Positions 1,616-43,655 of a stretch of DNA of 64,000 nucleotides are shown here, in pieces. Under the pieces are notes generated by a model that saw only the letters and a list, made by a program, of their open reading frames with translations, did no database searches and was not told where the DNA came from. The position numbers and the translations under genes are program-made. Each line of letters opens with the position of its first letter. The stretch's first letter is position 1. Source of the DNA: Lobosporangium transversale (lineage: Eukaryota); NCBI RefSeq assembly GCF_002105155.1, contig NW_019028997.1, positions 620,001-684,000 on the forward strand, read 5' to 3'.

Positions 1616-1652
1616 GCAGCCAAGCGCTCATTGCGAGGTTGCATTTTGATCC
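1616..1652 (+). other. Degenerate 25S/28S rRNA domain V fragment in LRR-gene 3' flank
   Basis: gcagccaagcgctcattgcgaggttgcattttgatcc matches recalled eukaryotic LSU GCAGCCAAGCGTTCATAGCGACGTTGCTTTTTGATCC at 33/37 positions (hand alignment). Confidence 0.75.
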
Positions 1653-1689
1653 ATTTTCTTCAATCCTTAAACTCAATTCTTCTTCCCGC

Positions 1690-2020
1690 TCTCTTATATA
1701 CCATCCTTACTATCCGTATATGCTCCCCTAATCATCTACAGCAATGCCTTCCATATGTTTTCACAAATGAGTTAGCCTTCCTTTGTCGCGTTTCCAAGCA
1801 TTCTCCAAATGTTTCCCCGACTGAATAGATCTTAGCCTGAAAATTTACTTGTCCAAGTCGCTCTTTATGTGCGGCTCTTCCAAATGAGTTTTGCATGATC
1901 CTCTCCCCCTGAAAGAATATTTCATGGTAAGCTATATAGCTCCATTAACAAGTCTCTCCTGCTCGCCTTGATTGAACAACAAAGAAAAAATAAAAAGGCA
2001 TTGAATACGAAATGGGTCAT
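1690..2020. repeat. Diverged copy of an unclassified dispersed repeat (also about 5620-5960 and 31430-31770)
   Basis: Shared blocks: ctatccgtatatgctcc..aatcatctaca, gtccaagtcgctctttatgtgcg, aagctatatagctccatt. Confidence 0.8.
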
Positions 2021-2764
2021 TGTTTGCCTTCATAGAGGCGAGAAGTCCGAGTCGGCCAACACAAAAGGATCCCCAAGCCATGCAGAGGGGTTTGGTCCTG
2101 CCGTTCAGAGTAAGAATAGCGATGGAATCGTCGTTACAACAGCATGGCCAGGTTAAATGATCATCTTCACCTTTCTCCCTTTGAGCAATCTCTCTCATCG
2201 ACTGAGTAAGAAGGGTGCTTACTAATACTGGAGAAGGATTTCGCTATTGAATGCCGCAGTCAACCGAAAGATCTACAGAATGGCTAGAAAACATTGAGCT
2301 TGAAGGCGCGCGTGGTAGTGGGAGAGCCGCGATTCGAAAGAACATTCCACTCACTCCACCAACTGTCCTTCTGTACACCTCACACCTGCCTAGTATATAT
2401 CACCCGCGACATGGATACAGCTCATAACAAACAGTAAAGGATGCGTCTTGAAGCCAATAATCAGTGTTTTGACCCAGCTGCATCCCTTCGCAAATGTGAT
2501 GGCAAGTAAGTTGGGAGACGTGGTAATACCGGCAGACAGTAACATGCTTGCATCCAAAGTATAAAAGCACGTCAATTATCTGATAGCCTTTCTTCAGTTG
2601 CATATTTTTTATGGTGTTTGCAAATTACTTGAGATACTTGATTGAGCATGGCAGGCCATAGAATTGTTGCATAGTAATTATAAATGACGAGCTACCAACA
2701 ACACCAAAGAAAGCGGAAGGAGGTAGAGCATCATATTGCTACTCTTTGCGTTGGACCAATCAAT

Positions 2765-2952
2765 GCTATCTGCCAACTATCCTCATCCAAGACTTTGAAC
2801 TACACGAGTATCTAATCCCTCGACTCTTCATTGCTCAAGACTAGACCACTTTGGCCACTTTGGACTTGTCCTTCAATTCAATCGGGGATGAAGGAACTCA
2901 TGCGCTGTCAAAGGCACTCAAGGATAACACTGCTTTGACTGTATTGGCCTAA
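2765..2952 (+). pseudogene. Internally deleted remnant of the LRR family
   Basis: ILIQDFELHEYLIPRLFI is joined almost directly to one terminal LRR, LDLSFNSIGDEGTHALSKALKDNTALTVLA*, which resembles the end of the 34398 gene (GDEGAHALSKALKNSTTLTVAV*). Confidence 0.8.
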
Positions 2953-3028
2953 ATGAAAGTGAGATGGCTGATTTAATCATCATATTGATATTTAAGTAGC
3001 CAAGAAATATATAATTCAGTTTAAATAA

Positions 3029-3095
3029 ATGACTGATCTGCAGTAGCCAAGCATTCATTGCGACATTACTTTTTGATCTTTCGACGTTTACTCTT
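3029..3095 (+). other. Degenerate 25S/28S rRNA domain V fragment
   Basis: agccaagcattcattgcgacattactttttgatctttcgacgt resembles LSU AGCCAAGCGTTCATAGCGACGTTGCTTTTTGATCCTTCGATGT. Confidence 0.7.
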
Positions 3096-3439
3096 TTTCC
3101 CCTTGCAGGAGGCTCCTAGCGTGCCAACGTTGATGGTGGCTCATCACTATATCAAATATATTATAAAAGTGCTACCAAAAACAATTGGATGTGATGAGTG
3201 ATCCAATACGCCTGCGAGAAGTGATTAAATCGTGCAGTAGTTCGTATTTCTCCACACGCAACCTACTATTCGACTTTTGAACCTAACTCAAGCCCTGCTT
3301 GTCAACACCCATTTTCACATTCTATTTGCATTTACAGGGGAAATTTTCAGATGGGATACGCTTGCATTATTTATTTATTTATTTATTTTAACAACTACAA
3401 CTAAGGGACACAACTAGGGGACAAAGGCCTTGAGGATTA

Positions 3440-4150: not shown

Positions 4151-4447
4151 TTATGGGATCGGCATCGACCAAAGCCCTTCGTCGGGCTTGGGGAAGGCCG
4201 GTCCTAGGTTCGGCCAGAAGAGAGGCCAAGAGCCTGGATGCCTGTCAAGGGACGTGGTAGCTCTTATTGTGGTTGTAGTGACTGAAAAAGAAAGCGAAAG
4301 AGAAAAGAAAAGAAAGAAAAAGTTAGCATCACAGTCAGTTAACACAAAGTATGAGAGCTGTGGTCATTATTTTTTTTTCTTATCAAGTAAGAGTGGATAT
4401 GTTTTTTTTATCTTTTTCTTTTGGGAGTGGAGCTTCTTACCTTTCAT
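4151..4447 (-). CDS. Putative spliced 45-aa microprotein (copy 1)
   Basis: Mirror of 32939-33235: upstream TATAAA, ATG AAA G|gtaag ... gctaac ... polypyrimidine cag|, in-frame second exon. Confidence 0.4.
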
Positions 4448-6248
4448 TTTCGTCAAAGTGGTTGAAGGATAAAGAAAAGAAGAAAAAGAGAAAGAGTGGA
4501 CAGATGACACCTTTATAAATGTTCGTTTTTGAAAGCCAAGAGGCAAGTGACATCATCCAACGTTGTTCATCGCTCTATCGATTCAATATTCGATTTAATG
4601 CTGAGATTGTATAGTGAAAGAGACGAAGCAAGGGAGAAGAAGGGTCAAGCAAAAAGAGCCGAGAGAGATTCATGTGATGTGCGCGCGTCCATTGCCCTTA
4701 CATCTCTCACATCTATTGGTCCGTCCTGTTGGTGGCAAAAATTTAGAAATTGAGACAGCGAATAGCAGCAGATGCATGGAGTCTATGCCGCTCATTATCC
4801 GCTTCTGATGTCATCTATACTCCTCTCATACCTCTTGGTACCAGAGCAAGCAAAGACCTCCCATACTCCAAGGGAAGAAACTTATTTAGACAATGAGCAA
4901 CGAGCAACATGTAGTGTGATGTGGTTAAACTAAACAGGACAAAGGTCCATAACATAAGCATAGTGACGGTTGTATTTACACACCCATGCTCACAGGCAGC
5001 CAGCCCTTGATCAAGAATAGAGGCAGAGTATCTTGACAACACCAGCCAAGTTTGTCTTCCTTTCCTTTGAAGAGGCTGACTGCGCAAATCGAAAGCATTA
5101 TAAAGGATTAAATGAAATAAGAATACATTATGAAGAGTACTATTCAAGATAATTCAGTGGAATATGAAAAGATAGTAAGCACAATGCATTTAAATAAATG
5201 TATGCTTACTATCGTCATTTGCAGCTCCACAAGCGATAAGTGTCATCAACAAGTCATAATGTTCTCTTAATGTCCGCCTCCCTTCTCTTCGCATATGGAA
5301 GCATAAGCATGAACAAATAGATATTCAGCTATTGACTCTGGCCTTGTTATATTTTTTAAACAAAGAAGTGAGATAAAATTAAATCATTAAACAAAATAAT
5401 AAAAAAAAAAAAAACAAATAGTAAATAGAAATAAAATAAGAATTAAATTAAGGAAATAAAAAATAAGAAATAAAAAATAAAATAAAAAATAAAATAAAAA
5501 ATAAGAAATAAAAAATAAAAATAAAAATAAAAATAAATATAAAAACAAAATATTGAAAATAAAAATAAATAAAAATAAGAAATAAAAAATAATTTTACTT
5601 CATTTTCTTGAATCTCGCTCTCTTACATACTATCCTCACTATCCGTATATGCTCCTCTAATCATCTACAACATATCTTCCATATGTCTTCACAAATGAGT
5701 TAGCCTCCCTTTTGTCGCGTTTCCAAGCATTCTCCAAATATTATTCCCGATTGAATAGACCTAAGTCTGAAGAATTACTTGTCCAAGTCGCTCTTTATGT
5801 GCGACGCATCCAAATGAGTTTCGAATACTCCCCTCTCTCTGAAAGGATATTTTATGATAAGCTATATAGCTCCATTAATAAGTCTCTCCTGCTCGACTCG
5901 ATTGAACAACAAAGAAAAACTAAAAGCCATTGAGTACGAAGTGGGCCGTTGTTTGTCTGGACAAGACTTGCTCTTCATACACTAACACGCATAACTGAGT
6001 GAGTGTTTTAGTTATTTTTTACTGTTACTTTAATATCTCCACAAGGACTTGCTTCATCACCATGGATTTGGCGCCATGGTATCTTTTTGGTCTTGAAGAG
6101 TTGATAGCTTTGGAGGATATGGCCTATCACTATTATTGTGATATTGGTAAGGATAGTATACCTAGTCATTTACTCAGTTCTGGAAGTGCAAATCAGACAA
6201 GTCAAACCTCTGCTTTTTATAAGTCCTGGTCCGCTTGTATAAAAGTCC

Positions 6249-6668
6249 ACTTTGGACATGAGGAACAGCTCGATTGGGAATGGAGGAGCCCTTGCACTGT
6301 CAGAGGCACTCAAGGTTAACACTACTTTGACCGCTCTAGGCCTGGGAAACAATTCAATTGGGAAAGAAGGAGTTCTTGCACTGTCAGAGACGCTCGCGAC
6401 TAACACTACTTTGACTACCTTGAAACTGGGATACAACTCAATTGGGAATGAAGGAGCTCTTGCACTGTCAGAGGCTCTCAAGATTAACACAACCTTAACT
6501 GGTTTGGACTTGTCCGACAACTCAATTGGGAATGAAGGAGCCCTTGCATTGTCAATGGCACTCAAGACTAATATAGCTTTGACTGCCTTGGATTTGTGGA
6601 GGAACCCAATTGGAAAGGAAGGAGCTCTTGCACTACTAGAGGCGACCATCACAATAGTATTTGAATAG
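6249..6668 (+). pseudogene. Orphan 5'-truncated LRR cassette (about 5 RNI-like repeats plus family C-terminus)
   Basis: LDMRNSSIGNGGALALSEALKVNTT... fused to repeat A at about 6248; no header or core domain upstream. Confidence 0.85.
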
Positions 6669-7159
6669 TGTAGGAAAATAACTTATTCCAAATAATTTGC
6701 TGATCTGCAGTAAAGTGTTCATTGCAACATTGCTTTCTTTAGTAAGAACACTTGCATTCTGTTCCAGTGCTTGCCATCATAGAAATCCTTAAGGGAGCGG
6801 CGACATTAACAAAATAAAATAAAAATGGCCCTCATCAGACGATCGGCTCCAGCCATTGTTAAAGTTTGAAGGGTGCAATGGTACAAAGCTTATTTAATGA
6901 TTGATGACTAAGTGCAAGGCGCTGTACATTGGTATTCTATTGAATCGATCATTCGACCGCACACATTTTAGATGAGAAGCTATTGTAACAAGAGCAGTTT
7001 AGATGAGAACAGTATTGAATGGATAGCGGGCGTTAAATATACTACGGTTGTTTCCAGGCGATCATTAACCCATTCTCATAGCTCTATACCTATGATGCTG
7101 CCAAATAAAACGAACTCTTAGCAGCATTGGTATGTTAGGATTCTCTTGCAAAGAGAGGG

Positions 7160-7225
7160 ACCAGACATCGAAGGATCAAAAGCCACCAATGTTATGAGCG
7201 TTTGCTTCCAGCAGCCACTAACTTA
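7160..7225 (-). other. Degenerate 25S/28S rRNA domain V fragment
   Basis: 7164-7181 is the reverse complement of TTTTGATCCTTCGATGTC, an exact 18-nt match to recalled LSU sequence. Confidence 0.7.
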
Positions 7226-7365: not shown

Positions 7366-9897
7366 TCACGTAAAACGGATCCGCGCCGCAATAGTCTTGA
7401 GCACCTCAGACAGTGCAAGGGCTTCTTCCTTTCCAATTGAGTTGTCCCTCAAGTCCAATTTAGTCAATGTGGCGTTAGTCTTGAGCGCTTCTGACAGCGC
7501 AAGAACTCCTTCCTTCCCAATTGAGTTGTAATGCAAGTTCAAAGTAGTCAAAGTTGTATTGACCTTGAGTGCCTCTGACAGTGCAAGGGCCCCATCATCC
7601 CCAATTGAGTTGTGCCTCAAGTCCAAAGTAGTCAAGGATGCGTTAGCCTTGAGTGCCTCTGATAATGCAAATGTTCCTTTATTCCCAATTGAGTTGTACC
7701 TCAAGTCCAGAGTTGTCAAGGTAGCGTTAGCTTTGAGTGCCTCTGACAGCGCAAGAGCTCCTTCCTTCCCAATGGCGTTGCTGAACAAGTCCAAAGTAGT
7801 CAAGGATGTGTTGGCCTTGAGTGCCTCTGACAGCGCAAGAGCCCCTTCCTTCCCAATTAAGTTGTGCCTCAAGCGCAAAATACTCAAGGTTGTGTTAGTC
7901 TTAAGTGCATCTGACAGTGCAAGAGCTCCTTTCTTCCCAATTGAGCTGTAACGCAAGTTCAAAGTAGTCAAGGTTGTGTTGATCTTGAGCGCCTCTGACA
8001 GTGCAAGAGCTCCTTCATCCCCAATTGATTTACTACTGAAGTCCAAACAAGTCAAAGTTGTATTCGTCTTCGACAGTAACAGAGCCCCTTCCTTTCCAAG
8101 CGAGCCGTACTCCATGTCCAAAGTAATCAAAGTTGTATTAGTCTTGAGTGCTTCTAACAGTGCAAGAGCTCCTTCCTTCCCAATTCGGTTGCACATCAAA
8201 TCCAGCGTGGTCAAAGTCTTGTTAGTCTTGAGTGCTTCTGATAGTTCCAGAACTTATTCATCCCCAATTGAAAGGCCCTTCAAGTTCAACGTAGTAATAG
8301 CGTTATCGTCCCTGAGTGTATTTGCGAGTGATCGAAAGTCACTAGCATCAATCTCTCGAGGCTTCATCTCAATAGTTAGCTTTTGAAGGTGTGGTGGCCT
8401 GCTGAGTCGTAAACTGGGGGCCTTTATAGTGTTCGGAGGTAAAACAATATGGATCGCCTTCATGCTGCTAAGTTCTATGATGTGAACAAGCATTCCATAT
8501 CTGGGAGCCATTGAAAGTATTTCTTTGGTGGTGCTTTCTTGAAACTCTCCGAGTTCAAGCCGAAGGATCGATACACTTGACTTCTTTAGTGCTTCTTCAA
8601 ATGCTTCAAGATCACTTTTACTCCAATTCCAGTCAAAACTGATATCCAACTCGTAAACACGTCTCGCATCGGTCAGCACATTGAAGAATTCTTCAGCTGT
8701 TGTTTTGGTCTTCAATATGATGGTCACTTTGCCTAGGTGCAAGTCATATTCGCCGCCATTCAGCTCCACTACCTTTTCGAACGCTTTTTGTTCTGCTTCT
8801 CTATATGTTGAGCGATAGTGATCAAAACAGACCCATTTGACATGGCCTGTCTCTGTCGTGATGCTGTACAAGTTGCCAAGTTGTTTGTCTTCATCATTGT
8901 TTTGAAGGAATTTCCCCAGTTGCCGAAGATCGGCTTCTTCAAGTGCCTCACACTCACCGATTTTGTTGATCTTGCTCAAGACTGGGTACTCATTAGGGAG
9001 TGCTTCCATATATTTGATCGAATAGTCGATACCGGCATCGAGATTAGGAGTTGGTACCAGGGAAGCTGTCAAAGGCATCCCCATTTTGAGAGAATGTAAA
9101 AGGATAAGCATGTACTTTCCATACTTGCGAAAGAACTCTGTGCTGTTTCGGATGTCATATCCTTCATGTTTGGCAATATGGATCTGGTTCTGATTGCTTT
9201 TGCTTATCGTTGCAGTGTGCTCTCCACATTCACAAAGGAAATGAAGGCGGAACTTGCTCCTCAGGATATTCCTTGGGTCCCACTTGGTGGTGTCAACAGG
9301 CAGGACTATAAAGAGTCGAGGGATTGGGTACTCATGTAACTCAAAGTTCTGGATAAGGATAGCAAGTCTGTCAAGAACTTGCTGCTGCAGTTTAAGCATT
9401 TCGTCGTCCTTCTTTTTGGCTTCCAGTAACAAGTCAAGCATCTTTTTGGCGTTTTCTTTAGTCTCTAGGATCAAATCCGTAGTCGTTTTAAGGCTGGAGC
9501 TGCTACTATTACTGCTGCTATTATTATTGCAGACCTGTGGTCCATCTGTAATGACATCCAGGATCTTGTCAGGATAGAATGCAATGCATGGGGGTTCGAT
9601 TCTAATAGGACAAAAGTAAAAACAAAACTTAGGATATGCAATTGAGTTCTCTTACTTTTTGTTCCTGAGCAACACATACGATAAATAAATACTTTACCTG
9701 TTGCCATTAGAGTCTTGAAGGAACAGGATGGGATGTTCATCCAGCTTGAATCGCTGTGCATCTGGAAACACATCCTGAATGTCTTGTAAACACACATAGT
9801 ATGATGAGTTGCCATTGCTTGCAGAGATGGAGGCAGTCCTGACACCGACTTCTTCAATGATGCCAGCTTTTCGGAATTGTTGGTACTGTTGAGTCAT
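7366..9897 (-). pseudogene. LRR-family gene with 11 LRRs, interrupted by an in-frame TAA in LRR1
   Basis: Exon 1 9897-9698, intron 9697-9602 (GT..AG), exon 2 from 9601. The TAA at 8256-8254 is in frame with the downstream LRR ORF 8214-7366. It also lacks about 7 aa (LQRHANA) present in paralogs. Confidence 0.85.
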
Positions 9898-11860
9898 GAG
9901 ATAATTCGAGGATAATGATGAAAAGTAGGAATGAAAAGATTCGTTCCATCTATTTTTTATACAATGTTTTTTTTTTTTTATTTTTTTATTTTTGGCTTCG
10001 ACTCTCCATCTCATCCATTTCTTTATTTTATGGAGTGATTCTGGTGTATCATTCATATTTCTTTCCACTCGAGGACTAATATGGCTCCTCATGCCATATT
10101 ATTCTTCAGAACAGCTTCTCCATTGATCCACTGAGCGTACAGTTACTCTCTAACCACTTGGGAAATCGGTCCTCTCATCCACCTTTGACATCGTACACGG
10201 AATGTTGTCGTCTATGACCACCGAGCACTGGAGAGTTTCCCAATCCCTTGCATCTGTTGCAATGTGTACTTTTTCCTATCCCGCATCGGATGGCCACTTT
10301 CGCTTCCTATCAGTCAATGTTGCTCCAAGCTGATTATACTCTGCGTCAATCCTTAAATAAAGTCCTCCTTTCTGGACAGTAACTCCAAGAATATAGCCAT
10401 CCAAACTAGAACGTCGAAAATGCAGGAAATAGTCATCCCTGACCAGATGCTCGACACCCGTTTAGATGCTCTAAACTAGAACTGCGAGTGGCGCATCTAG
10501 TTTAGCTTATGAATTCTGCCTTGCATGCATTTTATTCGTGTGGTGATTAAACGCGTAATTTGGTTCTATAAGGCACGTGACACCCATTTTCTTTTTTTTT
10601 CTCTCTCGTTCTTGGCATGACGCGTAAACATTCCTCTTCACTCACTTCATTCACTCTGCTCAGCAATTGCTTCTGTCTTCAATTCAAACCTGCTTCCCAT
10701 AACATGAGGTTGCTTTACAAGGTTATCAAGACTAGCAAGCGCAATGAAACGAAGTATAGCCACAAGGTAAGGGATTGGTTGTGACTAAGAACAAGCATAG
10801 CGTGTGTACGGATTTCAGAGAAAGGATGCGAGCAGGGTCCTCCGTGGGTACATGAGAAGAGTACAGTCTATGCTAAGGCGCTGGATTGCTTCTCGCTATG
10901 ACCTCGCCTCAGAGCCCGGGACTGAGGTGGTGCTGGATTTGAGCTTGTTGTTCTTGTTTGCTCCGTTGGGTGTCTTCACCTCTCCATGTTGAGCATGGAT
11001 GGTGCAGCAGCTTGAACGACATGTTCTCCGTCAGACTCGTGGGTCCATGAGGGGGTTGTTGTACCACGCAGTTGATAATGTGGTGCAAATAAGTCCCTCC
11101 TCCATATGGCCTCATCCGACTTCTTTGGAGTCCACTTCCCGTTGGACCTATCTGGGAGTCATATTGTAAGCAATTCTGCTCATCATGTTGGTTGCTCTTT
11201 GGGTACATGAGAGACACATAGTCGATGCTAAAAGGTGTGGACTGTCTCTTGCTATGACCTCCCCATGAGTCTTTTTGGCTCTTGGCAGTGCTGCAATCGA
11301 TGCCTGTTGTCTCTTTGAGGCTGATGGCTATGACGAACGTTAGGAATCATCCAATTGCGGTTGTTTTCATCGTTGGATGTCTGGGACCCCTGCCCCTGAG
11401 GAAATGAGCAGATTAATAGCACAAAGGAAGTTGTGCGGTTGTGTTTTGTCTCTTCAGCTCACTAACCAATCCCCAATTATTTTAGTTCTTCTCATTAGAT
11501 ATTGCCTATAACTGAGCAAGATCCCCATTGAGCAGGCAGCTACCGCTGCTCACCAGCCAGGTGCTAAAGCAGGCACAAGTGAGTAAGCAGAGATATTCGC
11601 ACCTTATCGCTCTGTTAGATAGAGGGACAGCAACTGAGATACACAAGGATGATCCAAATGATGACAAGAATGACAATGGAGGTATCTCAGGTTAGTGCAA
11701 TACCATTAAAAGCTCTCTTAATGTGTTCAATGAGCGAAGGAGATACGGACCCCAAGGATGCGTCTTTTGCAGTAGATGCATGTTGTGATAGTGGAAATGC
11801 CAGCAGCTCTAAAGATGGCAGGGTAGATGACTTGTAGCAAATAAATAAATATGTCAATAA
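9300..11860. repeat. Inverted segmental duplication B, left arm (partner about 39205-41760)
   Basis: ORFs 10804-10992, 10909-11217 and 11649-11837 are identical to 40073-40261, 39848-40156 and 39228-39416 (sums 51065). Includes the upstream region, exon 1 and intron of an LRR gene. Confidence 0.95.
10551..10625. promoter_or_regulatory. Promoter-like motif cluster (two ACGCGT, TATAA, CACGTG); duplicated at about 40440-40515
   Basis: ACGCGT at 10551 and 10620, TATAA at 10567, CACGTG at 10574, followed by a pyrimidine-rich leader and ATG at 10704. Confidence 0.35.
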
Positions 11861-24752: not shown

Positions 24753-24785
<33 letters not shown>

Positions 24786-27218: not shown

Positions 27219-27750
27219 GCAGCATTGTCCAACTCGAAAGTCCTTCTTTTTTTTTTTTTCTTTTTTTTCGCCTCAAATAGTAAATGTCATCTTGGCTCTA
27301 TAGCCCATGCACATGAGGCCGTACATTATTGACGATGTATGCTTGATCTGTTTATTAGCTTATGTTATTCATGAACCGATATTTATACATTGAGCGCAAT
27401 ATTAAGTGCATAGCAAGCGTTTAATATATTACAGTTGTTTCCAGACGATCATCAACCTATTTTCATGAGTCTATACCCATGATACTACTAAATAAAACGA
27501 ACTCTCAGCAGCATTGGTATGCTAAGATTTCCTTTTAAAGAGAGAGACCAGACAGCGAAGGTTCAAAAGGCACCAATGTTATGAGCGTTTGTTACTATCA
27601 GTCAGCTTATTTGGATCAAACTAACATTCTTAACTATCGACTATATTGATGACCAAACCAATCAAATAAATCTAGCAATGACCCATGTTTATCAGCCAAC
27701 ATCGAGCGTGTTACACCACTGGGAATATTTGGGTGTCGGTTAAGGTACTC

Positions 27751-30485
27751 TCACACATGAATGGCCAAAGTCGCGTTGGTCTTGCGTGCCTCTGACAGCG
27801 CAAGGGCTCCTGCGCGCCTGATTGATTTGTACGGCAAGTCCAAACAAGTCAAGGTTGTGTTAACCTTGAGCGCCTCTGACAGCGCAAGGGCTCCTTCGCT
27901 CTCAAAAAAGTTGCCATCCAAGTCCAAAGTAGTCAGGGTTGTGTTAGCCTTGAGTGCCTCTGACAGTGCAAGGGCTCCTTCATCCCCAATTGAGTTGAAC
28001 CCCAAGTTCAAACAAGTCAAGGTTGTGTTAGCCTTGAGTGCCTCTGACAGTGCAAGGGCTCCTTCGTCCCCAATTGAGTTCCCATCCAAGTTCAGAGTAG
28101 TCAGGGCTGTGTTAGCCTTGAGTGCCTCTGACAATGCAAGGGCTCCTTCGTTCCCAATTAAGTTGGGCTGCAAGTTCAAAGTAGTTAAGGCTGTGTTAGC
28201 CTTGAGTGCCTCTGACAGTACAAGGGCTCCTTCATCCCCAATTTCTTTACTACTGAAGCTCAAAGAAGTCAAGGTTGTGTTCGTCTTCGACAGCAACAGA
28301 ATTCCTTCCTTTCCAAGCGAGTCGTAATCCAAGTCCAAAGTGACCAAAGTTGTATTGGTCTTGAGTACTTCTAACAGTGCAAGAGCTCCTTCCTTCCTAA
28401 TGGAGTTGCCCATCAAATCTAGTGTGATCAAAGTCCTGTTAGCCTTGAGTCCTTCTGATAGTGCCATGACTCCTTCATCTCCAATTAAGTTGTTCCTCAA
28501 GTTCAAAGTAGTCAAACATCTGTTAGCCTTGAGTGCCTCTGACAGTGCCAGAGCTCCTCCAGCCATAACTGAATTATCCCTCAAGTTCAACATGGTTATA
28601 GCCGTATCGGCCTTGAGTATATTTGCGAGTGATTGTAAGCCACTAGTGGTAATAAATCGAGGCTTCATCTCAATAGTTAGCTTTTGAAGGTGTGGTGACC
28701 TGCTGAGCTGTAAACTGGGGGCCTTTATAGTGTTCGGAGGTAAAACAATATGGATCGTCTTCATGCTGCTAAGTTCTGTGATGTGAACAAGCATTCCATA
28801 TCGCGGGGTTGTCGAAAGTAATTTCTCGGTAGTCCTTTCTTGAAACTCTCCGAGTTCAAGTCGAAGGGCCGATACACTTGACTTCTTTAGTGCTTCTTCA
28901 AATCCTTCAAGATCAGCTTTGGTCCAATTCCAGTCAAAGATGATATCCAACTCGTAAACACGTCTTGCATTGGCCAGCGCATTGAAGAATTCTTCAGCTG
29001 TGGTTTTGGATTTCAATGTGATGATCACTTTGCCAAGGTGCAAGTTATATTCGCCGCCATTCAACTCCACTACCTTTTTGAACACTCTCCGTTCTGCTTC
29101 TCCATATGTCCAACGATAGTGATCAAAACAGACCCATTTGACATGGCCTGTCTCTGTCGTGATCCTGTACAAGTTGCCAAGTTGATTGCCTTCGTCGTTG
29201 TTTTCAAGGAACTTCCCCAATTGCCGAAGATCGGCTCCTTCAAGTGCCTCACACTCATCGATTTTGTTGATCTTGCTCAAGACTGGGTACTCATTAGAGA
29301 GCGCCTCCATATATTTGATCGCATAGTCGATACCGGCATCGAGATTTGGAGTTGGTGTCAGAGAAGTTGTCAAGGGCATCCCCATCTTGAGAGAATGTAA
29401 AAGGATGAGCATGTACTTTCCATACTTGCGAAAGAACTCTGTGCTGTTTCGGATGTCATATCCTTCATGTTTGGCAATATGGATCTGGTTCTGATTGCTT
29501 TTGCTTATCGTTGCAGTGTGCTCTCCACATTCACAAAGGAAACGAAGGCGAACCTTACTCCTCAGAATATTCCTTGGGTCCCATTTGGTGGTGTCGACAG
29601 GAAGGACTATGAAGAGTCGAGGGATTGGATACTCAAGTAACTCAAAGTTCTGGACAAGGATAGCACTAGCATGTCTTTGAAGAATGGCAAGTCTGTCGAG
29701 GGCTTGATACGCAGTTTAAGCATCTCGTTGCTCTTCTCCACAGCCTCTTGCTGTAGTTTAAGCATTTTATCATTCTTCTCCTCAGCCTCCCGTTGTAATT
29801 TAATTATTTCGTTGTCCTTTTCCGTAGCCTCCCGTTGCAGCTTAAGCATTTCATCATCCTTCTTTCTGGCTTCCAGTAACAGGTCAATCACCATGTTGCT
29901 CTTTTCTAACATCATCTCCGCAATCGTTTTAAGGCTAGAGTTGATCATCTCAGTTTGTGCGTTGTCGCGAGTAGTAAGGATTGAGTTGAAAGAATGAACC
30001 AAGTTTGATAATGGGTAAAATATCCTGGGAGGCTAGATTGGTTGGTACTCCCAACGCGGACAAACTGATGACGGCCATGCTGTTGCTGCTGGCGCTGGTG
30101 CTACTATTACTGCTGCTATTACAGTTGCAGGCCTGTGGTTCTGCTGTAATGACGTCCAGGATTTTGTCAGGATAGAACGCAATGCGTGGGGGTTCGATTC
30201 TAGTAGGACGAAAGAAAAATCAAAGTTAGGATACGCACTTACTTTTTGTTCCTGAGCAACACAAATGGTAAAATAAAACTCTTACCTGTTACCATTAGAG
30301 TCTTGAAGGAACAGGATGGGATGTCCATCCAACTTGAATCGCTGTGCATCTGGAAACACATCCTGAATGTCTTGCAAACACACATAGTATGACGAGTCGC
30401 CATTGCTTGCCGAGATGGAAGCAATCCTGACACCGACTTCTTCAATGATGTCAGCTTTTCGGAATCGTTGGTATTGTTGGGTCAT
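27751..30485 (-). pseudogene. LRR-family gene with 10 LRRs and two frameshifts in the N-terminal linker/coiled coil
   Basis: Exon 1 30485-30286, intron 30285-30200. One extra C near 30014 (ttacccatt vs ttaccatt in the 60912 copy) and a 1-nt loss near 29708, with a TGA in the shifted frame between them. Core and LRRs are open to 27751. The indels could be sequencing errors. Confidence 0.8.
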
Positions 30486-33235: not shown

Positions 33236-34275
33236 AAACCAGAAAAACCCAAAAAAATCGAAAAAACACGAAAAACCAAAAAAAATCCATAAAACACAAA
33301 AACCAAAAAAAATCCATAAAACACAAAAACCAAAAAAAACTATAAAACAAAAAAGACCAAAAAAATCATAAAAAAAAAAGACCCAAAAAAAACATTATAA
33401 AAAACAAAAACAAAAAAAAAGTATTAAAAAGAATTAAAAAAGCAAAAAAAAATGCATAAAAAAAACAAAAAGCAAACAAAAAAAAATATAAAAATACAAA
33501 AAGCAAAAAAAAATATAAAACTAAAAAAAAGCCGAAAAAAACAAAAAAAATAAGAAAAAAAAAAAAAAAAATTTAATAACTAATATTTAATATGTAACAT
33601 TATAATATTTACTCATAATATGTAACACTATAATATGTACCAATATAATGTGTACATTATAATAATAACAACTATATTAATCAAGGTGTTTAAGGTGTCT
33701 AAGGTGTTCAGGATGCTCAAGGCGCCAAGGTACCCAAGGCCTGCTAGACACAAGATATCCAAGATACCCTAAGGCGTCTAGAAGGCTCGATACATCCAAC
33801 GGTACCCAATATACCCTCCGAAACACCCGAAGAACTCTGGACACAAGGCACTCAAGACACCAAAGATACCCAAGGCATCCTAGATACTTAACGCACTTGA
33901 TACACTAGAGATAGTCAAAATAGCCAACATTAATCCTCAAGACCCTTATACCCTAGTCGTAGTTGTTAAAATAATAAATAAAAAGAATAAAAATTATAAA
34001 CCATCGTATTTAAATATTCTCCCTATAAGCGCAGACGGAATGCGAAAATGGATGTTAACCAACAGTGCTTTTGCCAGGTTCAAAAACCGAATATGAGGTT
34101 GCGTGTGTGGAGGAAAACGAACGGCTGCGCGATTTAGTTATTTTTTACAGGTGCATTGGATCACTCATCACGCCCAATTGTTTTTGGTGGCATTTTTTTA
34201 AATTTATTTTATACAACGGGGAGCCTCCATCAACGTTAGCACGTTAGAATCCCCTTGCAAGGGGAGAAAGAGTAA

Positions 34276-34334
34276 ACGTCGAAAGATCAAAAGGCAACGT
34301 CGGAATGAATGCTTGGCTACTGCAAGTCAGTTAT
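34276..34334 (-). other. Degenerate 25S/28S rRNA domain V fragment
   Basis: Reverse complement aligns without gaps at 49/59 to recalled LSU ATAACTGGCTTGTGGCAGCCAAGCGTTCATAGCGACGTTGCTTTTTGATCCTTCGATGT. Confidence 0.78.
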
Positions 34335-34397
34335 TTATTTGGACTGAATAATATTCAAACATCATTATGATGCTCAAGTCATCCAACCTGCTATCAT

Positions 34398-37300
34398 TTA
34401 GACTGCTACAGTCAAAGTGGTGCTATTCTTCAGTGCCTTCGATAGCGCATGAGCTCCTTCATCCCCAATTGAGTTGCACCACAAGTTCAAAGTAGTCAGG
34501 GTTGTATTAGCCTTGAGTGCCTTTGACAGTGCAATTGCTCCTTCAGCTCCAATTGAGTTGCATGCCAAGTTCAGAGTAGTCAAAGCTGTGTTAGCCTTGA
34601 GTGCCTCTGACAGTGCAAATGCTCCTTCCTTTCCAATTAAGTTATTGGGTAAGTCCAAAGCGTTCAGGGTTGTGTTAGCCTTGAGTGCCTCTGACAGTGC
34701 AAGTGCTCCTTCATCCCCAATTGAGTTGTCCCGCAAGTTCAAAGTAGTCAGGATAGTGTTAACCTTGAGTGCATCTGACAGTGCAAGCGCTCCTTCCTCC
34801 TCAATTGAGTTGTCCTGCAAGTTCAAAGTAGTCAAGGCTGTGTTAGCCTTGAGTGCCTCTGACAGTGCAAGAGCTCCTTCCTTCTCAATTGAGTTGTGCG
34901 ACAAATTCAAAGCAGCCAGGGTTGTGTTAACCTTGAGTGCCTCTGACAGTGCAAGAGCCCCTTCCTTCTCAATTGAGTTGCCTTCCAAGTTCAGGGTAGT
35001 CAAAGCGATGTTATTCTTGAGTGCCTCTGACAGTGCAAGTGTTCCTTCCTTTCCAATTAAGTTATTGGACAAGTCCAAAGCGTTCAGAGTTGTGTTAGCC
35101 TTGAGCGCCTCTGACAGTGCAAGAGCACCTTCATTCCCAATTGAGTTGCTGAACAAGTCTAAAGTAGTCAGGATAGTGTTAGCCTTAAGTGCCTCTGACA
35201 ATGCAAGAGTTCCTTCGTACCCAATTGAGTTGCCCTGCAGGTCCAAAGCAGTCAAGGCTGTGTTAGCCTTGAGCGCATCTGACAGTGCAAGAGCACCTTC
35301 ATTCCCAATTGAATTGCCTTCCAAGTTCAGGGTAGTCAAAGCGGTGTTATTCTTGAGTGCTTCTGACAGTGCAAGTGCTCCTTCCTTCTCAATTGAGTTG
35401 CGCGACAAGTTCAAAGCAGCCAGGGTTGTGTTAACCTTAAGTGCCTCTGACAGTGCAAAAGCCCCTTCCTTCTCAATTGAGTTGCCTTCCAAGTTCAGAG
35501 TAGCCAAAGTTGTGTTAATCTTGAGTGCCTCTGACAATGCCAGCGCTCCTTCATTCTCAATTAAGTTATTGGACAAGTCCAAAGTAGTCAAGGCTGTGAT
35601 AGCCTTGAGTGCCTCTGATAGTGCAAGAGCTCCTTCATTCCCAATGGAGTTGCTGAACAAGAGCAAAGTATTCAGGGTAATGTTAGCCTTGAGTGCCTCT
35701 GACAGCGCAAGAGTTCCTTCCTTCCCAATTGAGTTGTCTTCCAAGTTCAGAGTAGTCAAGACTGTGTTAACCTTGAGTGCCTCTGACAGTGCAAGTGCTC
35801 CTTCATACCCAATTGAGTTGCCCTGCAGGTCCAAAGTAGTCAAGGCTGTCTTAGCTTTGAGTGCCTCTGACAGCGCAAGAGCTCCTTCCTTCCCAACTGA
35901 GTTGTACCGCAAGTCCAAAGCAGTCAGGGTAATGTTAGCCTTGAGTGCCTCTGGCAGTGCAAGTGCTCCTTCCTTCCCAATTGCATTAAATCTGAAGTTC
36001 AAAGAAGTCAAGGTTGTGTTCGTCTTCGACAGCAACAGAATTCCTTCCTTCCCAAGCGAGTCGTACTCCAAGTCCAAAGTGACCAAAGTTGTATTGGTCT
36101 TGAGCACTTCTAACAGTGCAAGAGCTCCTTCCTTCCCAATGGAGTTGCCCATCAAATCTAGTGTGGTCAAAGTCCTGTTAGCCTTGAGTCCCTCTGATAG
36201 TGCCATGACTCCTTTATCTCCAATTAAGTTGTTCCTCAAGTTCAAAGTAGTCAAACATCTGTTGGCCTTGAGTGCCTCTGACAGTGCCAGAGCTCCTTCA
36301 ACCATAACTGAATTATCCCTCAAGTTCAACATGGTTATAGCAGTATCGGTCTTGAGTATATTTGCGAGTGATTGAAAGTCACTAGTGTTAATCAATCGAG
36401 GCTTCATCTCAATAGTTAGTTTTTGAAGGTGTGGTGGCCTGCTGAGCTGTAAACTGGGGACCTTTATAGTGTTCGGAGGTAAAACAATATGGATCGTCTT
36501 CATGCTGCTAAGTTTTGTGATGTGAACAAGCATTCCATATCGCGAGGATGTCGAAAGTAATTTCTCGGTGGTGCTTTCTTGGAACTCTCCGAGTTCAAGT
36601 CGAAGGGCCGATATACTTGACTTATTTAATACTTCCTCCAAAGCTTCAAGATCAGCTTTGGTCCAATTCCAGTTAAAGATGATATCCAACTCGTAAACAC
36701 GTCTTGCATTGGTCAGCGCATTGAAGAATTCTTCAGCTGTGGTTTTGGATTTCAATGTGATGGTCACTTTGCCAAGGTACGAGTCATATTCACCGCCATT
36801 CAACTCCACTGCTTTTTCGAACGCTTTCTGTTCTGCTTCTCTATATGTCGAGCGATAGTGATCGAGACAAACCCATTTGACATGACCTGCTTCGGTCGTG
36901 ATCCTGTACAAGTTACCAAGTTGATTGCCTTCATCATTTGTTTGAAAGAATGTTCCCAGTTGTCGAAGATCGGCTTCTTCAAGTACCTTATAGTCATCAA
37001 TTGTGGTGATGTTGCTCAAGACCGGATGTACATTGGAAAGCGCTTCCATATATTTGACCGAGTAGTTGATAGCGGCATCGACATTCGGGATTGGTGCCAG
37101 AGAAGCCGTCGGAGACGATGTATCCTTGAGACAGTGTAAAAGGGTGAGCATGTATTTTCCATACTTGCGATAAAACTCCATACTGCTTCGAACTTCATAT
37201 CCATTATGGTTGGCAATATGGATTTGGCTCTGGCTGCTTGTCGTTGCGGAGTGATCCCCACATTCACAGAGGAAATAAAGGCGAAACTTCTTTTTCAAGA

Positions 37301-37932
37301 TATTCCTTGGATTCCACTCGGTCTGCTGGATAGGTAAAATAATAAAAAGTCGCGGGATTGGACACTCGTGTAGCTCAAGGCTCTGGACGAGGATGGCGTT
37401 AACATGCTTTTGAAGGATAGCAAGTCTGTCGAGGGCTTGACGTTGGAGTTCTTTAGGTATCTCATTACTCTTCTCCTTAGTCTCCTGTTGTTGTGGTTCC
37501 TCCAAGGAAGACAAGTTAGTGACAATATTACTATTGCTGGACTGCGACGTTCCCGTAATGATGTCCAGGATCTTGTGAGGATAGAAAGCAATGCGTGGAG
37601 GTTCGATTCTAATAGAATAAGAAAAGAAAGACATGAATGTCCAATCGAGTTCACTTATTTGGTTCTTTTTTCTTTCCAAGGCAATTGACAAGGCACCTTG
37701 ATAAAGTAAATATTATACTATACCTGTTGCCATTAGAGTCTTCAAGGAATGGGATGGGATCTCCATCGGATTTGAAATGTATTGCCTCTGGAAACATGTC
37801 TCGAATGTCCGTCAAATCCACATAGAATGTCAAGTCGCCATTGCTTCGAGAGGTGGAATCAATTCTGACACAAACTTGTTCAATCGTTCCAGTGCCAGCC
37901 TGTCGGAACTGTTGGTAATGAATTTGTGTCAT
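34398..37932 (-). CDS. Intact LRR-family protein, about 1139 aa, about 23 RNI-like LRRs
   Basis: Exon 1 37932-37724, intron 37723-37609, exon 2 37608-34398 (3420 nt, in frame). Header, CECGDH/WVCLDHY core and 28-aa LxxLxLxxNxIGxEGALALSEALKxNxx repeats. Confidence 0.92.
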
Positions 37933-38499
37933 TTTTCTTTTTTTCTTTTTTTTTGGTGATTATTCGATGAATGATGACAAGCTGAAGGGTTTTCTCATTT
38001 TCATTTTCTGAGCAATGGAGTCGCCGACCATCTTTTTTTTTTTGTCTGGCTTTACCGCTTGAGTACAAAAGTACAAGGATACAGGTCTGTCGAATGCATT
38101 CATCTGCTGTGCCTAATAAATTAGAAAAGCTATCCACATGCACATGCAGTCTTTGATTGGCTCTCAAATGATGACTACAGACACAATTAAGTGCGCCTTG
38201 GGCTGTTGATACAGTACGGACCACATAATGGCGCCGTATCATTCTCTCTTCTTGCAAATTTCCTGAAATACCACCCACCCTGACAACTGAACTAAGGTGC
38301 TTTCCTCATCCTTGTGCTTGTCCTCCCGGTCACCTTTGAGCTCTTCAACAATGTTATCTTTGTCACTGGCAGAGGGTACTTTGTGAAATATTCCTCAATC
38401 GATGGTCTACTGTAGTTGAAAGGAGTATCTGTTCCGTATAAACGCTAATGGAGGAGTTAATCCTCATGTGGGAACTAACGGAAGGCGTAGCTGGAGGGA

Positions 38500-39200: not shown

Positions 39201-39204
39201 TGTT

Positions 39205-41760
39205 TATTGACATATTTATTTTATTTGCTACAAGTCATCTACCCTGCCATCTTTAGAGCTGCTGGCATTTCCACTATCACAACATGCATCTACTGCAAAA
39301 GACGCATCCTTGGGGTCCGTATCTCCTTCGCTCATTGAACACATTAAGAGAGCTTTTAATGGTATTGCACTAACCTGAGATACCTCCATTGTCATTCTTG
39401 TCATCATTTGGATCATCCTTGTGTATCTCAGTTGCTGTCCCTCTATCTAACAGAGCGATAAGGTGCGAATATCTCTGCTTACTCACTTGTGCCTGCTTTA
39501 GCACCTGGCTGGTGAGCAGCGGTAGCTGCCTGCTCAATGGGGATCTTGCTCAGTTATAGGCAATATCTAATGAGAAGAACTAAAATAATTGGGGATTGGT
39601 TAGTGAGCTGAAGAGACAAAACACAACCGCACAACTTCCTTTGTGCTATTAATCTGCTCATTTCCTCAGGGGCAGGGGTCCCAGACATCCAACGATGAAA
39701 ACAACCGCAATTGGATGATTCCTAACGTTCGTCATAGCCATCAGCCTCAAAGAGACAACAGGCATCGATTGCAGCACTGCCAAGAGCCAAAAAGACTCAT
39801 GGGGAGGTCATAGCAAGAGACAGTCCACACCTTTTAGCATCGACTATGTGTCTCTCATGTACCCAAAGAGCAACCAACATGATGAGCAGAATTGCTTACA
39901 ATATGACTCCCAGATAGGTCCAACGGGAAGTGGACTCCAAAGAAGTCGGATGAGGCCATATGGAGGAGGGACTTATTTGCACCACATTATCAACTGCGTG
40001 GTACAACAACCCCCTCATGGACCCACGAGTCTGACGGAGAACATGTCGTTCAAGCTGCTGCACCATCCATGCTCAACATGGAGAGGTGAAGACACCCAAC
40101 GGAGCAAACAAGAACAACAAGCTCAAATCCAGCACCACCTCAGTCCCGGGCTCTGAGGCGAGGTCATAGCGAGAAGCAATCCAGCGCCTTAGCATAGACT
40201 GTACTCTTCTCATGTACCCACGGAGGACCCTGCTCGCATCCTTTCTCTGAAATCCGTACACACGCTATGCTTGTTCTTAGTCACAACCAATCCCTTACCT
40301 TGTGGCTATACTTCGTTTCATTGCGCTTGCTAGTCTTGATAACCTTGTAAAGCAACCTCATGTTATGGGAAGCAGGTTTGAATTGAAGACAGAAGCAATT
40401 GCTGAGCAGAGTGAATGAAGTGAGTGAAGAGGAATGTTTACGCGTCATGCCAAGAACGAGAGAGAAAAAAAAAGAAAATGGGTGTCACGTGCCTTATAGA
40501 ACCAAATTACGCGTTTAATCACCACACGAATAAAATGCATGCAAGGCAGAATTCATAAGTAGATGCGCCACTCGCAGTTCTAATTTAGAGCATCTAAACG
40601 GGTGTCGAGCATCTGGTCAGGGATGACTATTTCCTGCATTTTCGACGTTCTAGTTTGGATGGCTATATTCTTGGAGTTACTGTCCAGAAAGGAGGACTTT
40701 ATTTAAGGATTGACGCAGAGTATAATCAGCTTGGAGCAACATTGACTGATAGGAAGCGAAAGTGGCCATCCGATGCGGGATAGGAAAAAGTACACATTGC
40801 AACAGATGCAAGGGATTGGGAAACTCTCCAGTGCTCGGTGGTCATAGACGACAACATTCCGTGTACGATGTCAAAGGTGGATGAGAGGACCGATTTCCCA
40901 AGTGGTTAGAGAGTAACTGTACGCTCAGTGGATCAATGGAGAAGCTGTTCTGAAGAATAATATGGCATGAGGAGCCATATTAGTCCCCGAGTGGAAATGA
41001 TACACCAGAATCATTCCATAAAATAAAGAAAAGGATGAGATGGAGAGTCGAAGCCAAAAATAAAAAAATAAAAAAAAAAAAACATTGTATAAAAAATAGA
41101 TGGAACGAATCTTTTCATTCCTACTTTTCATCATTATCCTCGAATTATCTCATGACTCAACAGTACCAACAATTCCGAAAAGCTGGCATCATTGAAGAAG
41201 TCGGTGTCAGGACTGCCTCCATCTCTGCAAGCAATGGCAACTCATCATACTATGTGTGTTTACAAGACATTCAGGATGTGTTTCCAGATGCACAGCGATT
41301 CAAGCTGGATGAACATCCCATCCTGTTCCTTCAAGACTCTAATGGCAACAGGTAAAGTATTTATTTATCGTATGTGTTGCTCAGGAACAAAAAGTAAGAG
41401 AACTCAATTGCATATCCTAAGTTTTGTTTTACTTTTATCCTATTAGAATCAAACCCCCATGCATTGCATTCTATCCTGACACGATCCTGGATGTCATTAC
41501 AGATGGACCACAGGTCTGCAATAGTAATAGCAGCAGTAATAGTAGCAGCTCCAGTCTTAAAACGACTACGGATTTGATGCTAGAGACTAAAGAAAACGAC
41601 AAAAAGATGCTTGACTTGTTACTGGAGGCCAAAAAGAAGGACGAAGAAATGCTTAAACTGCAGCAGCAAGCTCTCGACAGACTTGCCACCCTTCAAAGAC
41701 ATGCCAATGCTATCCTTATCCAGAACTTTGAGTTACATGAGTATCCAATCCCTCGACTCT
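39205..41760. repeat. Inverted segmental duplication B, right arm
   Basis: Reverse complement of about 9300-11860. Confidence 0.95.
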
Positions 41761-43445
41761 TCATAATCCTGCCTGTCGACACCACCAAGTGGGACCCAAG
41801 GAATGTCCTGGGGAGCAAGGTCCGCCCTCATTTCCTTTGTGAATGTGGAGAACACACTGCAACGATAAGCAAGAGCAATCAAAACCAGATTCATATTGCT
41901 AAACATGAAGGATATGACATCCGAAACAGCACAGAGTTCTTTCGCAAGTATGGAAAATACATGCTCATCCTCTTACACTCTCTCAAAATGAAATCGCCCT
42001 TGACGGCTTCTTTGGCATCAATCCCGAAACTCGATGTCTGTATCAACTCTTCGATCAAATATATAGAAGCACTCTCTAATAAGTACTCAGTCTTGAGCAA
42101 GATTAACAAAATCGACGAGTGTGAGGCACTTGAAGGAGCTGATCTTTGGCAACTGGAAAAATCCCTTGAAAATAACGATGAAGGCAAGCAACTTGGTAAC
42201 TTGTACAGGATCACAACGAAGACAGGCCATGTCAAATGGGTCTGTCTGGATCACTATTGTTGGACATATATAGAAGCAGAACAGCAAGTGCTCGAAAAAG
42301 CAGTAGAGCTGAATGGTGGCGAATATGACTTGCACCTTGGCAAAGTGATCATCAGATTGAAGTCCAAAGCAACAGCTGAAGAGCTCTTTGATACGCTGGC
42401 CAACGCAAGGTGTGTTTACGAGTTGGATATCGCCTTTGATTGGAATTGAACCAAAGCTGATCTGGAAGCATTCGAAGAAGCACTAAAGACGTCAAGTGTA
42501 TCGATCCTTCGACTTGAACTCGGAGATTTTCAAGAAAGCATTAGCTGGAAAATACTTTCGACATCCTCGCCATATGAAACACTTGCTCGCATGATAGAAC
42601 TTAGCAGCATGAAGACAATTCAGATTGTTCTCCCTCCGAAGACTATAAAAGTCCCCAGTTTACGATTCAATAGGCCATCACACCTTCAAAATCTAACCAT
42701 TGAGATGCAACCTCGGATTGGCTTTAATGACTTTCGAGTACTCGCAAGTACACTCAAGGCCGATACGGCTATAAACACGTTGAACTTGAGGGGTAAATCA
42801 ATTGGAGATGAAGGACTTCTGGCACTGTCAGAGGCACCCAAGGCCAACACATGTTTGGCTACTTTGAACCTGCGGAACAATTGGGAATGAAGGAGTAATG
42901 GCACTATCAGAGGCACTCAAGACTAACGGGGCTTTGACCACGCTGAATTTGATGAGCAATTCAGTCGGGCATGAAGGAGCTCATGCACTGTTAGAGGCGC
43001 TCAAGGTTAACACTACCTTGACCATTTTGGATTTGGAGTACGATTCACTTGGAAAGGAAGGGGTTCTGTTGCTGTCTAAGACAAACACGACTTTAGCTGA
43101 TTTGGACTTTACCTCCAAGTCAATTGGGATGAAGGGGCTAATGCAATTGCAGAGGCGCTCAAGACTAATACAACCATGCTTGCTTTGGACTTGGGGCTCA
43201 ATTCAATTGAGAGTGAAGGAGCTCCTGCACTCTCAGAGGCACTCAAGGCTAACACTACCTTGATTTCTTTATGCTTGTGGAAGAACCCAATTGGGAAGGA
43301 AGGAGCTCTTGCATTGTCAAAGGCATTCAGAGGTAACACTTCCTTGGCTACTTTGGACTTGAGAGAGAACTCAATTGGTGGTGAAGGAGCTCTTGCGTTG
43401 TCAGAGGCACTCGAAGTTAATGCGGGTCTGGTCATTCATACGTGA
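41152..43445 (+). pseudogene. LRR-family pseudogene with 8 LRRs
   Basis: Exon 1 41152-41351, intron 41352-41446. TGA at 42447 where paralogs have TGG; frameshifts near 42880 and 43127. Confidence 0.88.
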
Positions 43446-43599
43446 GGAAACCTTTGCCGGCATTTAAAGATTTTCGGTGGTGTAACGCGACTGATTTTGG
43501 CTTATAAATATGAGCCATTATTAGGTCTATTTGGGTGAATTTATTATAGATAATATCTTAATAGCTAAGAAGAGATGTTTATTCTAAATAAGTAAATGA

Positions 43600-43655
43600 C
43601 TGATGGTAGCGAGCGTTCATACTGTCATTGCTTTTTGGTCCCACTATGTCTTCTC
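43600..43655 (+). other. Degenerate 25S/28S rRNA domain V fragment
   Basis: agcgttcatactgtcattgctttttggtcccactatgtc resembles AGCGTTCATAGCGACGTTGCTTTTTGATCCTTCGATGTC. Confidence 0.6.

What the first reader, a model, noticed from the sequence alone, without database searches (positions are those of the whole stretch)
1616..43655. A degenerate 25S/28S rRNA peptidyl-transferase-region fragment follows each LRR-family gene
Seen: about 30-160 nt after the gene end, always on the gene's sense strand, a related sequence occurs at 1616-1652(+), 3029-3095(+), about 6698-6736(+), 7160-7225(-), about 27550-27610(-), 34276-34334(-) and 43600-43655(+). The eighth would fall just past the window end. Against the conserved eukaryotic LSU domain V/helix 89 sequence recalled from memory, hand alignments give 33/37, 49/59 ungapped and an exact 18-mer. 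Weaker similarity to the downstream GTGAGCTGGGTTTAGACCGTCGTGAGACA may continue at about 7040-7090 and 27430-27480. The 3029 copy changes a C-G stem pair to T-A. Inference: the family ancestor captured an rDNA/rRNA piece that travels with the gene. It may be a neutral fossil, a retained 3'UTR hairpin, a link to rRNA-derived small-RNA silencing, or a trace of an rRNA-derived or rDNA-targeting mobile unit.
Basis: partly seen in the sequence, partly recalled or inferred. Interest (0 to 1): 0.8.

Follow-up and report, generated by a model that had tools for sequence, protein, structure and literature searches.

The report
rDNA scrap copied with LRR genes
A roughly 70-base piece of large-subunit ribosomal DNA sits just behind each copy of a fungal leucine-rich-repeat gene family; it was likely captured once and then copied along with the genes as a slowly decaying fossil, though it may have been co-opted to help end their mRNAs.

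Summary
Confirmed: all 7 LRR-family 3' flanks that lie inside this Lobosporangium transversale window carry a sense-strand piece of eukaryotic 25S/28S rDNA (about Rfam RF02543 2826-2895, helix 89). An LSU profile finds 6 of 7 at E<=0.021 and the seventh at E 3.2; a profile of the copies hits LSU at about 2e-16. Copies are 64-85% identical to LSU, and their majority letter matches it at 57 of 69 columns. The proposed downstream continuation is not significant. Non-rDNA flanks on both sides are shared and the genes keep their intron, so one capture followed by DNA duplication is the best reading. The hairpin shows no covariation, only one copy keeps an 18-nt exact match, and the piece diverges faster than the genes' fourfold sites. 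It persists in broken copies. Against pure neutrality: it is somewhat better kept than its flanks (p about 0.02-0.04, not within the larger subgroup), and an AATAA directly upstream is invariant (p 0.013). A co-opted poly(A) module stays open (about 0.2). No transcript-end data were obtained. The scan held no look-alike stretch; it noted rRNA inserts of the same general kind in other genomes.

The parts
1616..1654 (+). LSU helix-89 piece, copy c1; cut short at its 3' side by a junction to other duplicated DNA
   Evidence: 33/39 to LSU; E 1.4e-6; junction at 1652
3029..3106 (+). LSU piece, copy c2
   Evidence: 51/69; E 6e-8
6698..6738 (+). LSU piece, copy c3; most decayed and cut short, followed by a decayed LRR stretch
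   Evidence: 27/42; E 3.2 to the LSU profile but E 3e-4 to the c2/c6 core profile; LRR remnant
7148..7224 (-). LSU piece, copy c4; holds the 18-nt exact match at 7164-7181
   Evidence: 48/68; E 2.6e-5
27541..27609 (-). LSU piece, copy c5
   Evidence: 43/65; E 0.021
34257..34338 (-). LSU piece, copy c6; closest full-length copy to LSU
   Evidence: 55/69; E 8e-12
43590..43671 (+). LSU piece, copy c7
   Evidence: 48/68; E 0.0047
34335..34340 (-). AAATAA (here AATAAA) abutting the 5' end of the piece; counterparts at 1604-1609, 3023-3028, 6690-6695, 7223-7228, 27607-27612, 43586-43591; candidate poly(A) signal, inferred
   Evidence: AATAA invariant in 7 of 7 copies, run test p 0.013; the c3 position is read
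243..1496 (+). family gene g1, pseudogene (many stops and frameshifts)
2771..2952 (+). g2, short 3' fragment of a family gene
6243..6668 (+). g3, LRR-only fragment
7366..9900 (-). g4; in-frame stop at 8254-8256; identical over 420 residues to L. transversale BCR41DRAFT_396509
27751..30480 (-). g5; frame break or extra intron near 29.7 kb, not resolved
34398..37935 (-). g6; one intron, uninterrupted 1104-codon second exon: N-terminal domain plus RNI-like LRR_6 array
41150..43446 (+). g7; premature stop and frameshifts
60950..64000 (+). g8 and the start of its 3' flank; the flank is homologous to those of g4, g5 and g7 up to the window end

Best explanation
A 70-100-base piece of 25S/28S rDNA lies in sense orientation 30-155 bases behind the stop of each family copy; it was likely inserted once behind an ancestral LRR gene, then likely spread by DNA duplication of gene plus flank, and now likely decays with little or no selection. 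Shown: LSU origin, sharp limits, shared non-rDNA flanks, retained intron, decay pattern. Inferred: a single insertion shortly before the copies split (most likely a patch at a DNA break, or a reverse-transcribed rRNA fragment; the two cannot be told apart now), and lack of function.
For: Limits: anchored extension against LSU reaches 4 nt upstream and 13-41 nt downstream, the latter marginal; flank consensus against LSU p 0.11-0.74. Single event: between subgroups A (c2, c6) and B (c4, c5, c7) the 70 nt beyond the core still align (z 7.3; upstream z 1.9), and upstream flanks align by eye in all 8. Ancestor near LSU: majority letter matches at 57 of 69 columns; LSU joins the core tree on a 0.04 branch. 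DNA-level copying: intron kept in 5 of 5 full-length genes; shared blocks of 3.4 and 4.3 kb with differing ends. Decay: 71 of 115 differences from LSU are G>A, C>T or T>C. In subgroup B the core is no better kept than its flanks (85 vs 81/82%, 68 vs 70/61%, 70 vs 67/61%; p 0.46-0.88). Core tree length is 0.75 against 0.50 for fourfold sites of the same four genes. It is kept in pseudogenes and fragments. A second, unrelated LSU relic at 13522-13912 shows that such scraps arise in this genome. Precedent: rDNA gave 2 of 8 insertions at a repaired break in wild-type yeast (PMC10802722, passages); dispersed rDNA strings are common junk in human DNA (PMC5381670, abstract).
Against: Across five long copies the core changes more slowly than its flanks: 0.69 vs about 0.90 parsimony steps per column (one-sided p 0.042), tree length 0.75 vs 1.10 and 1.17. 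c2 vs c6: 90% in the core vs 77% in flanks (p 0.018); three pairs pooled p 0.07. Between A and B the core is the only window with strong profile hits. The central 41 columns match LSU at 40 while the 3' tail carries indels. AATAA is invariant. Caveats both ways: the core was delimited by its likeness to LSU, AT-rich flanks align worse, and fourfold sites may be constrained or gene-converted.
Confidence: 0.62

Rival explanations
1. The captured rDNA was co-opted into the family's 3'-end processing region. The abutting AATAA(A) would be the poly(A) signal, cleavage would fall about 25 nt later near the invariant TCAT in the helix-89 loop, and the U-rich 3' strand of the helix would act as the downstream element. 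Selection would act on sequence, not on rRNA fold.
For: AATAA invariant in 7 of 7 (p 0.013). TCAT and several downstream T are invariant. Invariant columns: 10 of 43 in the core part vs 5 of 59 upstream. Both truncated copies keep the motif plus about 40 nt. Core slower than flanks. The spacing fits the metazoan-type signal (recalled; not established for Mortierellaceae, nothing relevant listed).
Against: The hexamer is AATAAA in only 3 of 7 copies (AATAAG 3, AATAAT 1). AATAAA occurs 1.5 times per kb per strand in the window. A and T are mutation sinks here. No excess conservation in subgroup B. The core is faster than fourfold sites. A conserved signal does not need the rDNA piece.
Confidence: 0.22
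2. The mRNAs keep a helix-89-like hairpin that binds a protein, for example a ribosome-biogenesis factor.
For: One two-sided change (C-G to T-A in c2). c1 and c2 fold into the expected hairpin.
Against: All five covariation measures are within shuffles (161-410 of 500 reach them); 14 of 60 cells are unpaired. Folding z from -1.5 to +1.0 in 7 of 7; subgroup B breaks the apical pairs.
Confidence: 0.04
3. The piece makes the LRR mRNAs targets of antisense rRNA-derived small RNAs.
For: The sense orientation would suit antisense rRNA siRNAs, which are known in C. elegans and Arabidopsis (search listing). The 18-nt run in c4 has p 0.011 on its own.
Against: Longest exact matches are 6-11 nt in the other 6 of 7 copies (p 0.43-0.95); one of seven tests at 0.011 is weak, and c4's run was the bait used to fetch references. 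The copies drift away from LSU rather than tracking it.
Confidence: 0.04
4. The piece is the trace of a mobile unit (an rDNA-targeting retroelement or a SINE28-like element) that moved the LRR gene or inserted repeatedly.
For: An A-rich stretch abuts the 5' end. LINE remnants are reported elsewhere in this genome (unchecked note). A Helitron-like remnant lies near 15.5-16.4 kb (recalled motifs).
Against: No solo copies: the flank profile hits only the 8 family loci below E 1. Introns are kept. Duplicated blocks end at different places. Only low-complexity or short inverted repeats surround 4 of 4 genes tested. No RT or transposase family in 24 ORFs scanned. The piece is internal to LSU, not its 3' end.
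Confidence: 0.05

Closest known systems
Dispersed, degrading rDNA fragments ('rDNA-like signal', Robicheau et al. 2017, PMC5381670; abstract seen)
   Same: Short rDNA strings outside the arrays, decaying towards random sequence.
   Different: Here one string was multiplied as a passenger of a gene-family expansion, at a fixed place behind the stop codon, in a Mortierellaceae fungus.
rDNA fragments captured at repaired double-strand breaks in yeast (PMC10802722, preprint; passages seen)
   Same: A short internal rDNA piece with sharp ends in unrelated DNA.
   Different: Those are fresh laboratory events; this one is old and fixed, and its junctions are too decayed to show the mechanism.
Tailless 28S retropseudogenes (Noll et al. 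2015, PMC5322556; passages seen) and SINE28 (Longo et al. 2015, PMC4994717; abstract seen)
   Same: LSU-derived genomic copies; the tailless class includes 5'-truncated internal 28S pieces.
   Different: No target-site duplication seen and no solo copies. SINE28 comes from the LSU 3' end and is a Pol III mobile element; this piece is helix 89. The separate 13.5-kb relic does reach the LSU 3' end.
R1/R2, R4 and Pokey elements that insert in 28S and can carry rDNA (review PMC10946416; passages seen)
   Same: A defined 28S stretch joined to foreign DNA.
   Different: The foreign DNA is an intron-containing LRR gene with no RT or transposase, spread by segmental duplication.

Membership tests
dispersed rDNA-derived fragment | significant likeness to an rRNA gene | tested here: met
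   (6 of 7 at E<=0.021; copies' profile vs LSU about 2e-16)
dispersed rDNA-derived fragment | outside an rDNA array, partial | tested here: met
   no other rRNA parts next to it; limits
dispersed rDNA-derived fragment | decay without rRNA-type constraint | tested here: met
   64-85% identity, transitions dominate; no covariation
dispersed rDNA-derived fragment | no selected function at all | tested here: inconclusive
   faster than fourfold sites but slower than flanks, p 0.02-0.04 in two tests, not in subgroup B
dispersed rDNA-derived fragment | derived from the host's own nuclear rDNA | not testable with these tools
   no host genome or rDNA held; eukaryotic cytoplasmic type; no blastn match in E. 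coli genomes; mitochondrial rnl not compared
SINE28 / tailless retropseudogene | target-site duplication | tested here: inconclusive
   looked for by eye in the and 69 alignments; none common to both subgroups; junctions old
SINE28 / tailless retropseudogene | independent copies at unrelated sites | tested here: not met
   within the window only family loci are hit; rest of the genome not available
SINE28 / tailless retropseudogene | SINE28: LSU 3'-end origin | tested here: not met
   piece maps to about RF02543 2826-2895 of 3401
rDNA-targeting mobile element | RT or transposase gene, or common termini | tested here: not met
structured cis-regulatory RNA | conserved fold with covariation | tested here: not met
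   (8 rows, low power)
cleavage/polyadenylation module | conserved A-rich signal upstream of a U-rich tract | tested here: inconclusive
   AATAA 7 of 7, p 0.013; full hexamer 3 of 7
cleavage/polyadenylation module | mRNA 3' ends map 10-30 nt past the signal | not testable with these tools
   only assembled contigs were available, which cannot show an RNA end

The most novel reading that the evidence does not exclude
A piece of the ribosome's peptidyl-transferase region was exapted as the cleavage and polyadenylation region of an expanding fungal LRR gene family, with the helix-89 loop as the cut site and its U-rich strand as the downstream element.
Probability: 0.2. Interest if true: 0.65.

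Novelty: new member of a known kind. Interest (0 to 1): 0.27.

Why it matters
As a fossil it is ordinary in kind but useful. Because the donor rRNA is nearly invariant, the piece gives each copy a known ancestral sequence, so it dates and orders a burst of LRR gene duplication and shows the genome's mutation bias. It would also mark the subfamily genome-wide. If it proved to set the mRNA 3' end, it would be a rare case of rRNA sequence exapted as a Pol II processing element. No such case, and nothing on these genes, appeared in the paper searches run.

Tried and rejected
Whole genome: none held, so no genome-wide count. Rfam scans of the window and of 6600-7400 did not report the seven pieces. 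A longer rDNA relic around the core: suggestive collinear local alignments failed shuffle tests; the best single result was p 0.027 for the +42 to +95 stretch against 1 of 5 references. A rearranged second LSU piece in the c5 downstream flank: p 0.11. Extension of the 13.5-kb relic up to helix 89: p 0.24-0.98. Bacterial origin: no blastn match in E. coli genomes. Relatives: the first metagenome scan found none. The second returned 68 loci, the best of 258 matches, all from one assembly; 0 of 68 hit the LSU profiles and none hit the flank profile below E 0.47. But they are only 32-44% identical to the query, 54 of 68 have 300 nt or more past the last match, and only 4 of those 54 show the LRR array. 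This shows only that the piece is not ancestral to the whole domain family. Translated flanks against 120 listed homologues (of 1340) gave no sign of the piece in gene models. Expression: no RNA holder listed. One run guessed to be RNA covered 25 of 30 bins of 34040-38500, with none at 34040-34337 or 38063-38500; an uncovered part of a contig set is no evidence on where the mRNA ends. Only this one stretch was laid, so the other copies are untested. A small hairpin just past the core looked covarying by eye but pairs in different registers in c4 and c6; dropped. A first run test for invariant columns (p 0.0013) wrongly included columns where two copies have no homologous DNA; the corrected value is 0.013. 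Earlier findings: no look-alike sequence, nothing near.
Full report
Setting. The window is fungal. Gene g4 is identical over 420 residues to Lobosporangium transversale BCR41DRAFT_396509, and the 120 listed homologues (of 1340) are all Mortierellaceae. It holds eight copies of a family with an N-terminal domain and an RNI-like LRR_6 array. Most are damaged: g1 is a pseudogene, g2 and g3 are fragments, g4 has an in-frame stop, g7 a premature stop and frameshifts, and g8's frame ends about 100 nt before the homologous stop. g6 has an uninterrupted second exon. No whole genome was held.

Observation. Rfam's scan missed the short pieces, so I fetched real LSU sequences (55 loci), kept 45 as LSU-like and confirmed 6 of 6 tested with RF02543. 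blastn hit 6 of 7 sites. A helix-89 profile from 31 references hit six at E 8e-12 to 0.021 and the seventh at 3.2; that seventh copy is tied in through the c2/c6 core profile at E 3e-4. A profile of the seven flanks hits LSU at about 2e-16 and picks up g8's flank up to the window end. The c4 match is not independent, as its 18-mer was the bait. Identities to reference L051 are 33/39, 51/69, 27/42, 48/68, 43/65, 55/69 and 48/68. The piece spans about RF02543 2826-2895 (read); the helix number 89 is recalled.

Extent. Flanks do not match LSU beyond chance: subgroup B consensus p 0.03-0.80 upstream (one of six references below 0.05) and 0.11-0.53 downstream, p 0.11-0.74 against whole references. 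Anchored extension reaches 4 nt upstream and 13-41 nt downstream (0-4 of 40 shuffles as high). So about 70 nt are firm and up to about 100 possible.

History. The copies' majority letter equals LSU at 57 of 69 columns and at 40 of the central 41, and LSU joins the core tree on a short branch: the ancestor's piece was nearly intact when the copies split. Subgroups A (c2, c6) and B (c4, c5, c7, with c8's flank) also share DNA beyond the core (+45 to +115: z 7.3; -100 to -30: z 1.9; nothing beyond +115), which points to one insertion. The five long genes keep their intron and the duplicated blocks have unrelated ends, so copying was at DNA level. None of 68 loci of distant family members from one metagenome assembly carries the piece. 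This is a weak test, as only 4 of 54 with enough downstream DNA show the LRR array.

Function. Structure: on 8 rows and 8 pairs, 76.7% of cells pair against 76.4% in shuffles, there is one two-sided change, and no measure exceeds shuffles; folding z-scores run from -1.5 to +1.0. Small RNA: longest exact matches are 11, 10, 7, 18, 6, 9 and 10 nt. Mobile unit: no solo copies, common ends, meaningful inverted repeats or RT/transposase families. Rate: within B the core equals its flanks (p 0.46-0.88), and 71 of 115 differences from LSU are G>A, C>T or T>C. Core tree length (0.75) exceeds that of fourfold sites (0.50, 72 sites) and third positions (0.52). Against this, c2/c6 keep the core at 90% vs 77% (p 0.018), and five copies give 0.69 vs about 0.90 steps per column (p 0.042) with flank tree lengths of 1.10 and 1.17. 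These borderline values are inflated by choosing the core for its likeness and by poorer alignment of AT-rich flanks, but they are not nothing. An AATAA directly upstream is invariant in 7 of 7 (p 0.013), though the full hexamer is in only 3 of 7. No data on transcript ends were obtained.

Verdict. Best reading (0.62): one short rDNA capture behind an ancestral LRR gene, carried by segmental duplication and decaying close to neutrally. The capture route is inferred from precedent: break repair in yeast (PMC10802722, passages) or reverse transcription of rRNA (PMC5322556, passages). A second LSU relic at 13522-13912 shows such events recur here. Main rival (0.22): co-option into the poly(A) region. 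Hairpin, small-RNA and mobile-unit readings each get about 0.05.

Comparison and novelty. It is a member of the known class of dispersed rDNA fragments (PMC5381670, abstract). It fails membership of SINE28 (PMC4994717, abstract) and of rDNA-targeting elements (PMC10946416, passages). Searches for this family or this arrangement listed nothing relevant (searches returned 0 papers; some searches listed unrelated ones); subscription papers are mostly not searched and no supplements were read. Earlier scan notes held no look-alike stretch. Notes on rRNA inserts in other genomes gave the lead to tailless retropseudogenes and were not checked. Interest 0.27.

Noticed in passing
window 13522-13912 (-): A second, longer decayed LSU relic covering RF02543 3005-3399, ending at the mature 25S 3' end; 64-70% to the four best of six references; single copy in the window, no poly(A) tail seen.
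   Followed up: partly
window 15502-16400 (+): Broken reading frame with motifs that resemble Helitron Rep/helicase proteins (recalled, not from a call); Pfam found nothing in the two overlapping ORFs.
   Followed up: partly
L008, L017, L042 at the start of helix 89: Three reference LSU loci lose likeness just upstream of the AACUG stretch, as a group I intron at L2449 would cause (site name recalled). The captured piece begins within about 4 nt of the same spot.
   Followed up: no
window 2834-6249 vs 31137-34517: Mosaic inverted duplication: 100% identical over about 2.1 kb (3901-6000) but 76-90% next to the gene end, suggesting recent conversion or recombination.
   Followed up: partly
window 7640-11861 vs 39203-43423: g4 and g7 share a 4.3-kb block with a near-identical intron and upstream region, while g7's coding part is closest to g8: chimeric paralogues.
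   Followed up: partly
window 34398-37935, 60950-63870: The family's N-terminal domain (precomputed PF27087; no hit in the local Pfam copy) has 1340 homologues, the 120 listed all from Mortierellaceae. It may be an immune-receptor-like birth-and-death family; no paper was found.
   Followed up: no
window 17084-18287, 20119-24900, 49633-55125, 58404-59372: Ordinary genes interleaved with the cluster: short-chain dehydrogenase, NUP159/214-like, TRM732/THADA, and a microbial-type PARG domain.
   Followed up: no
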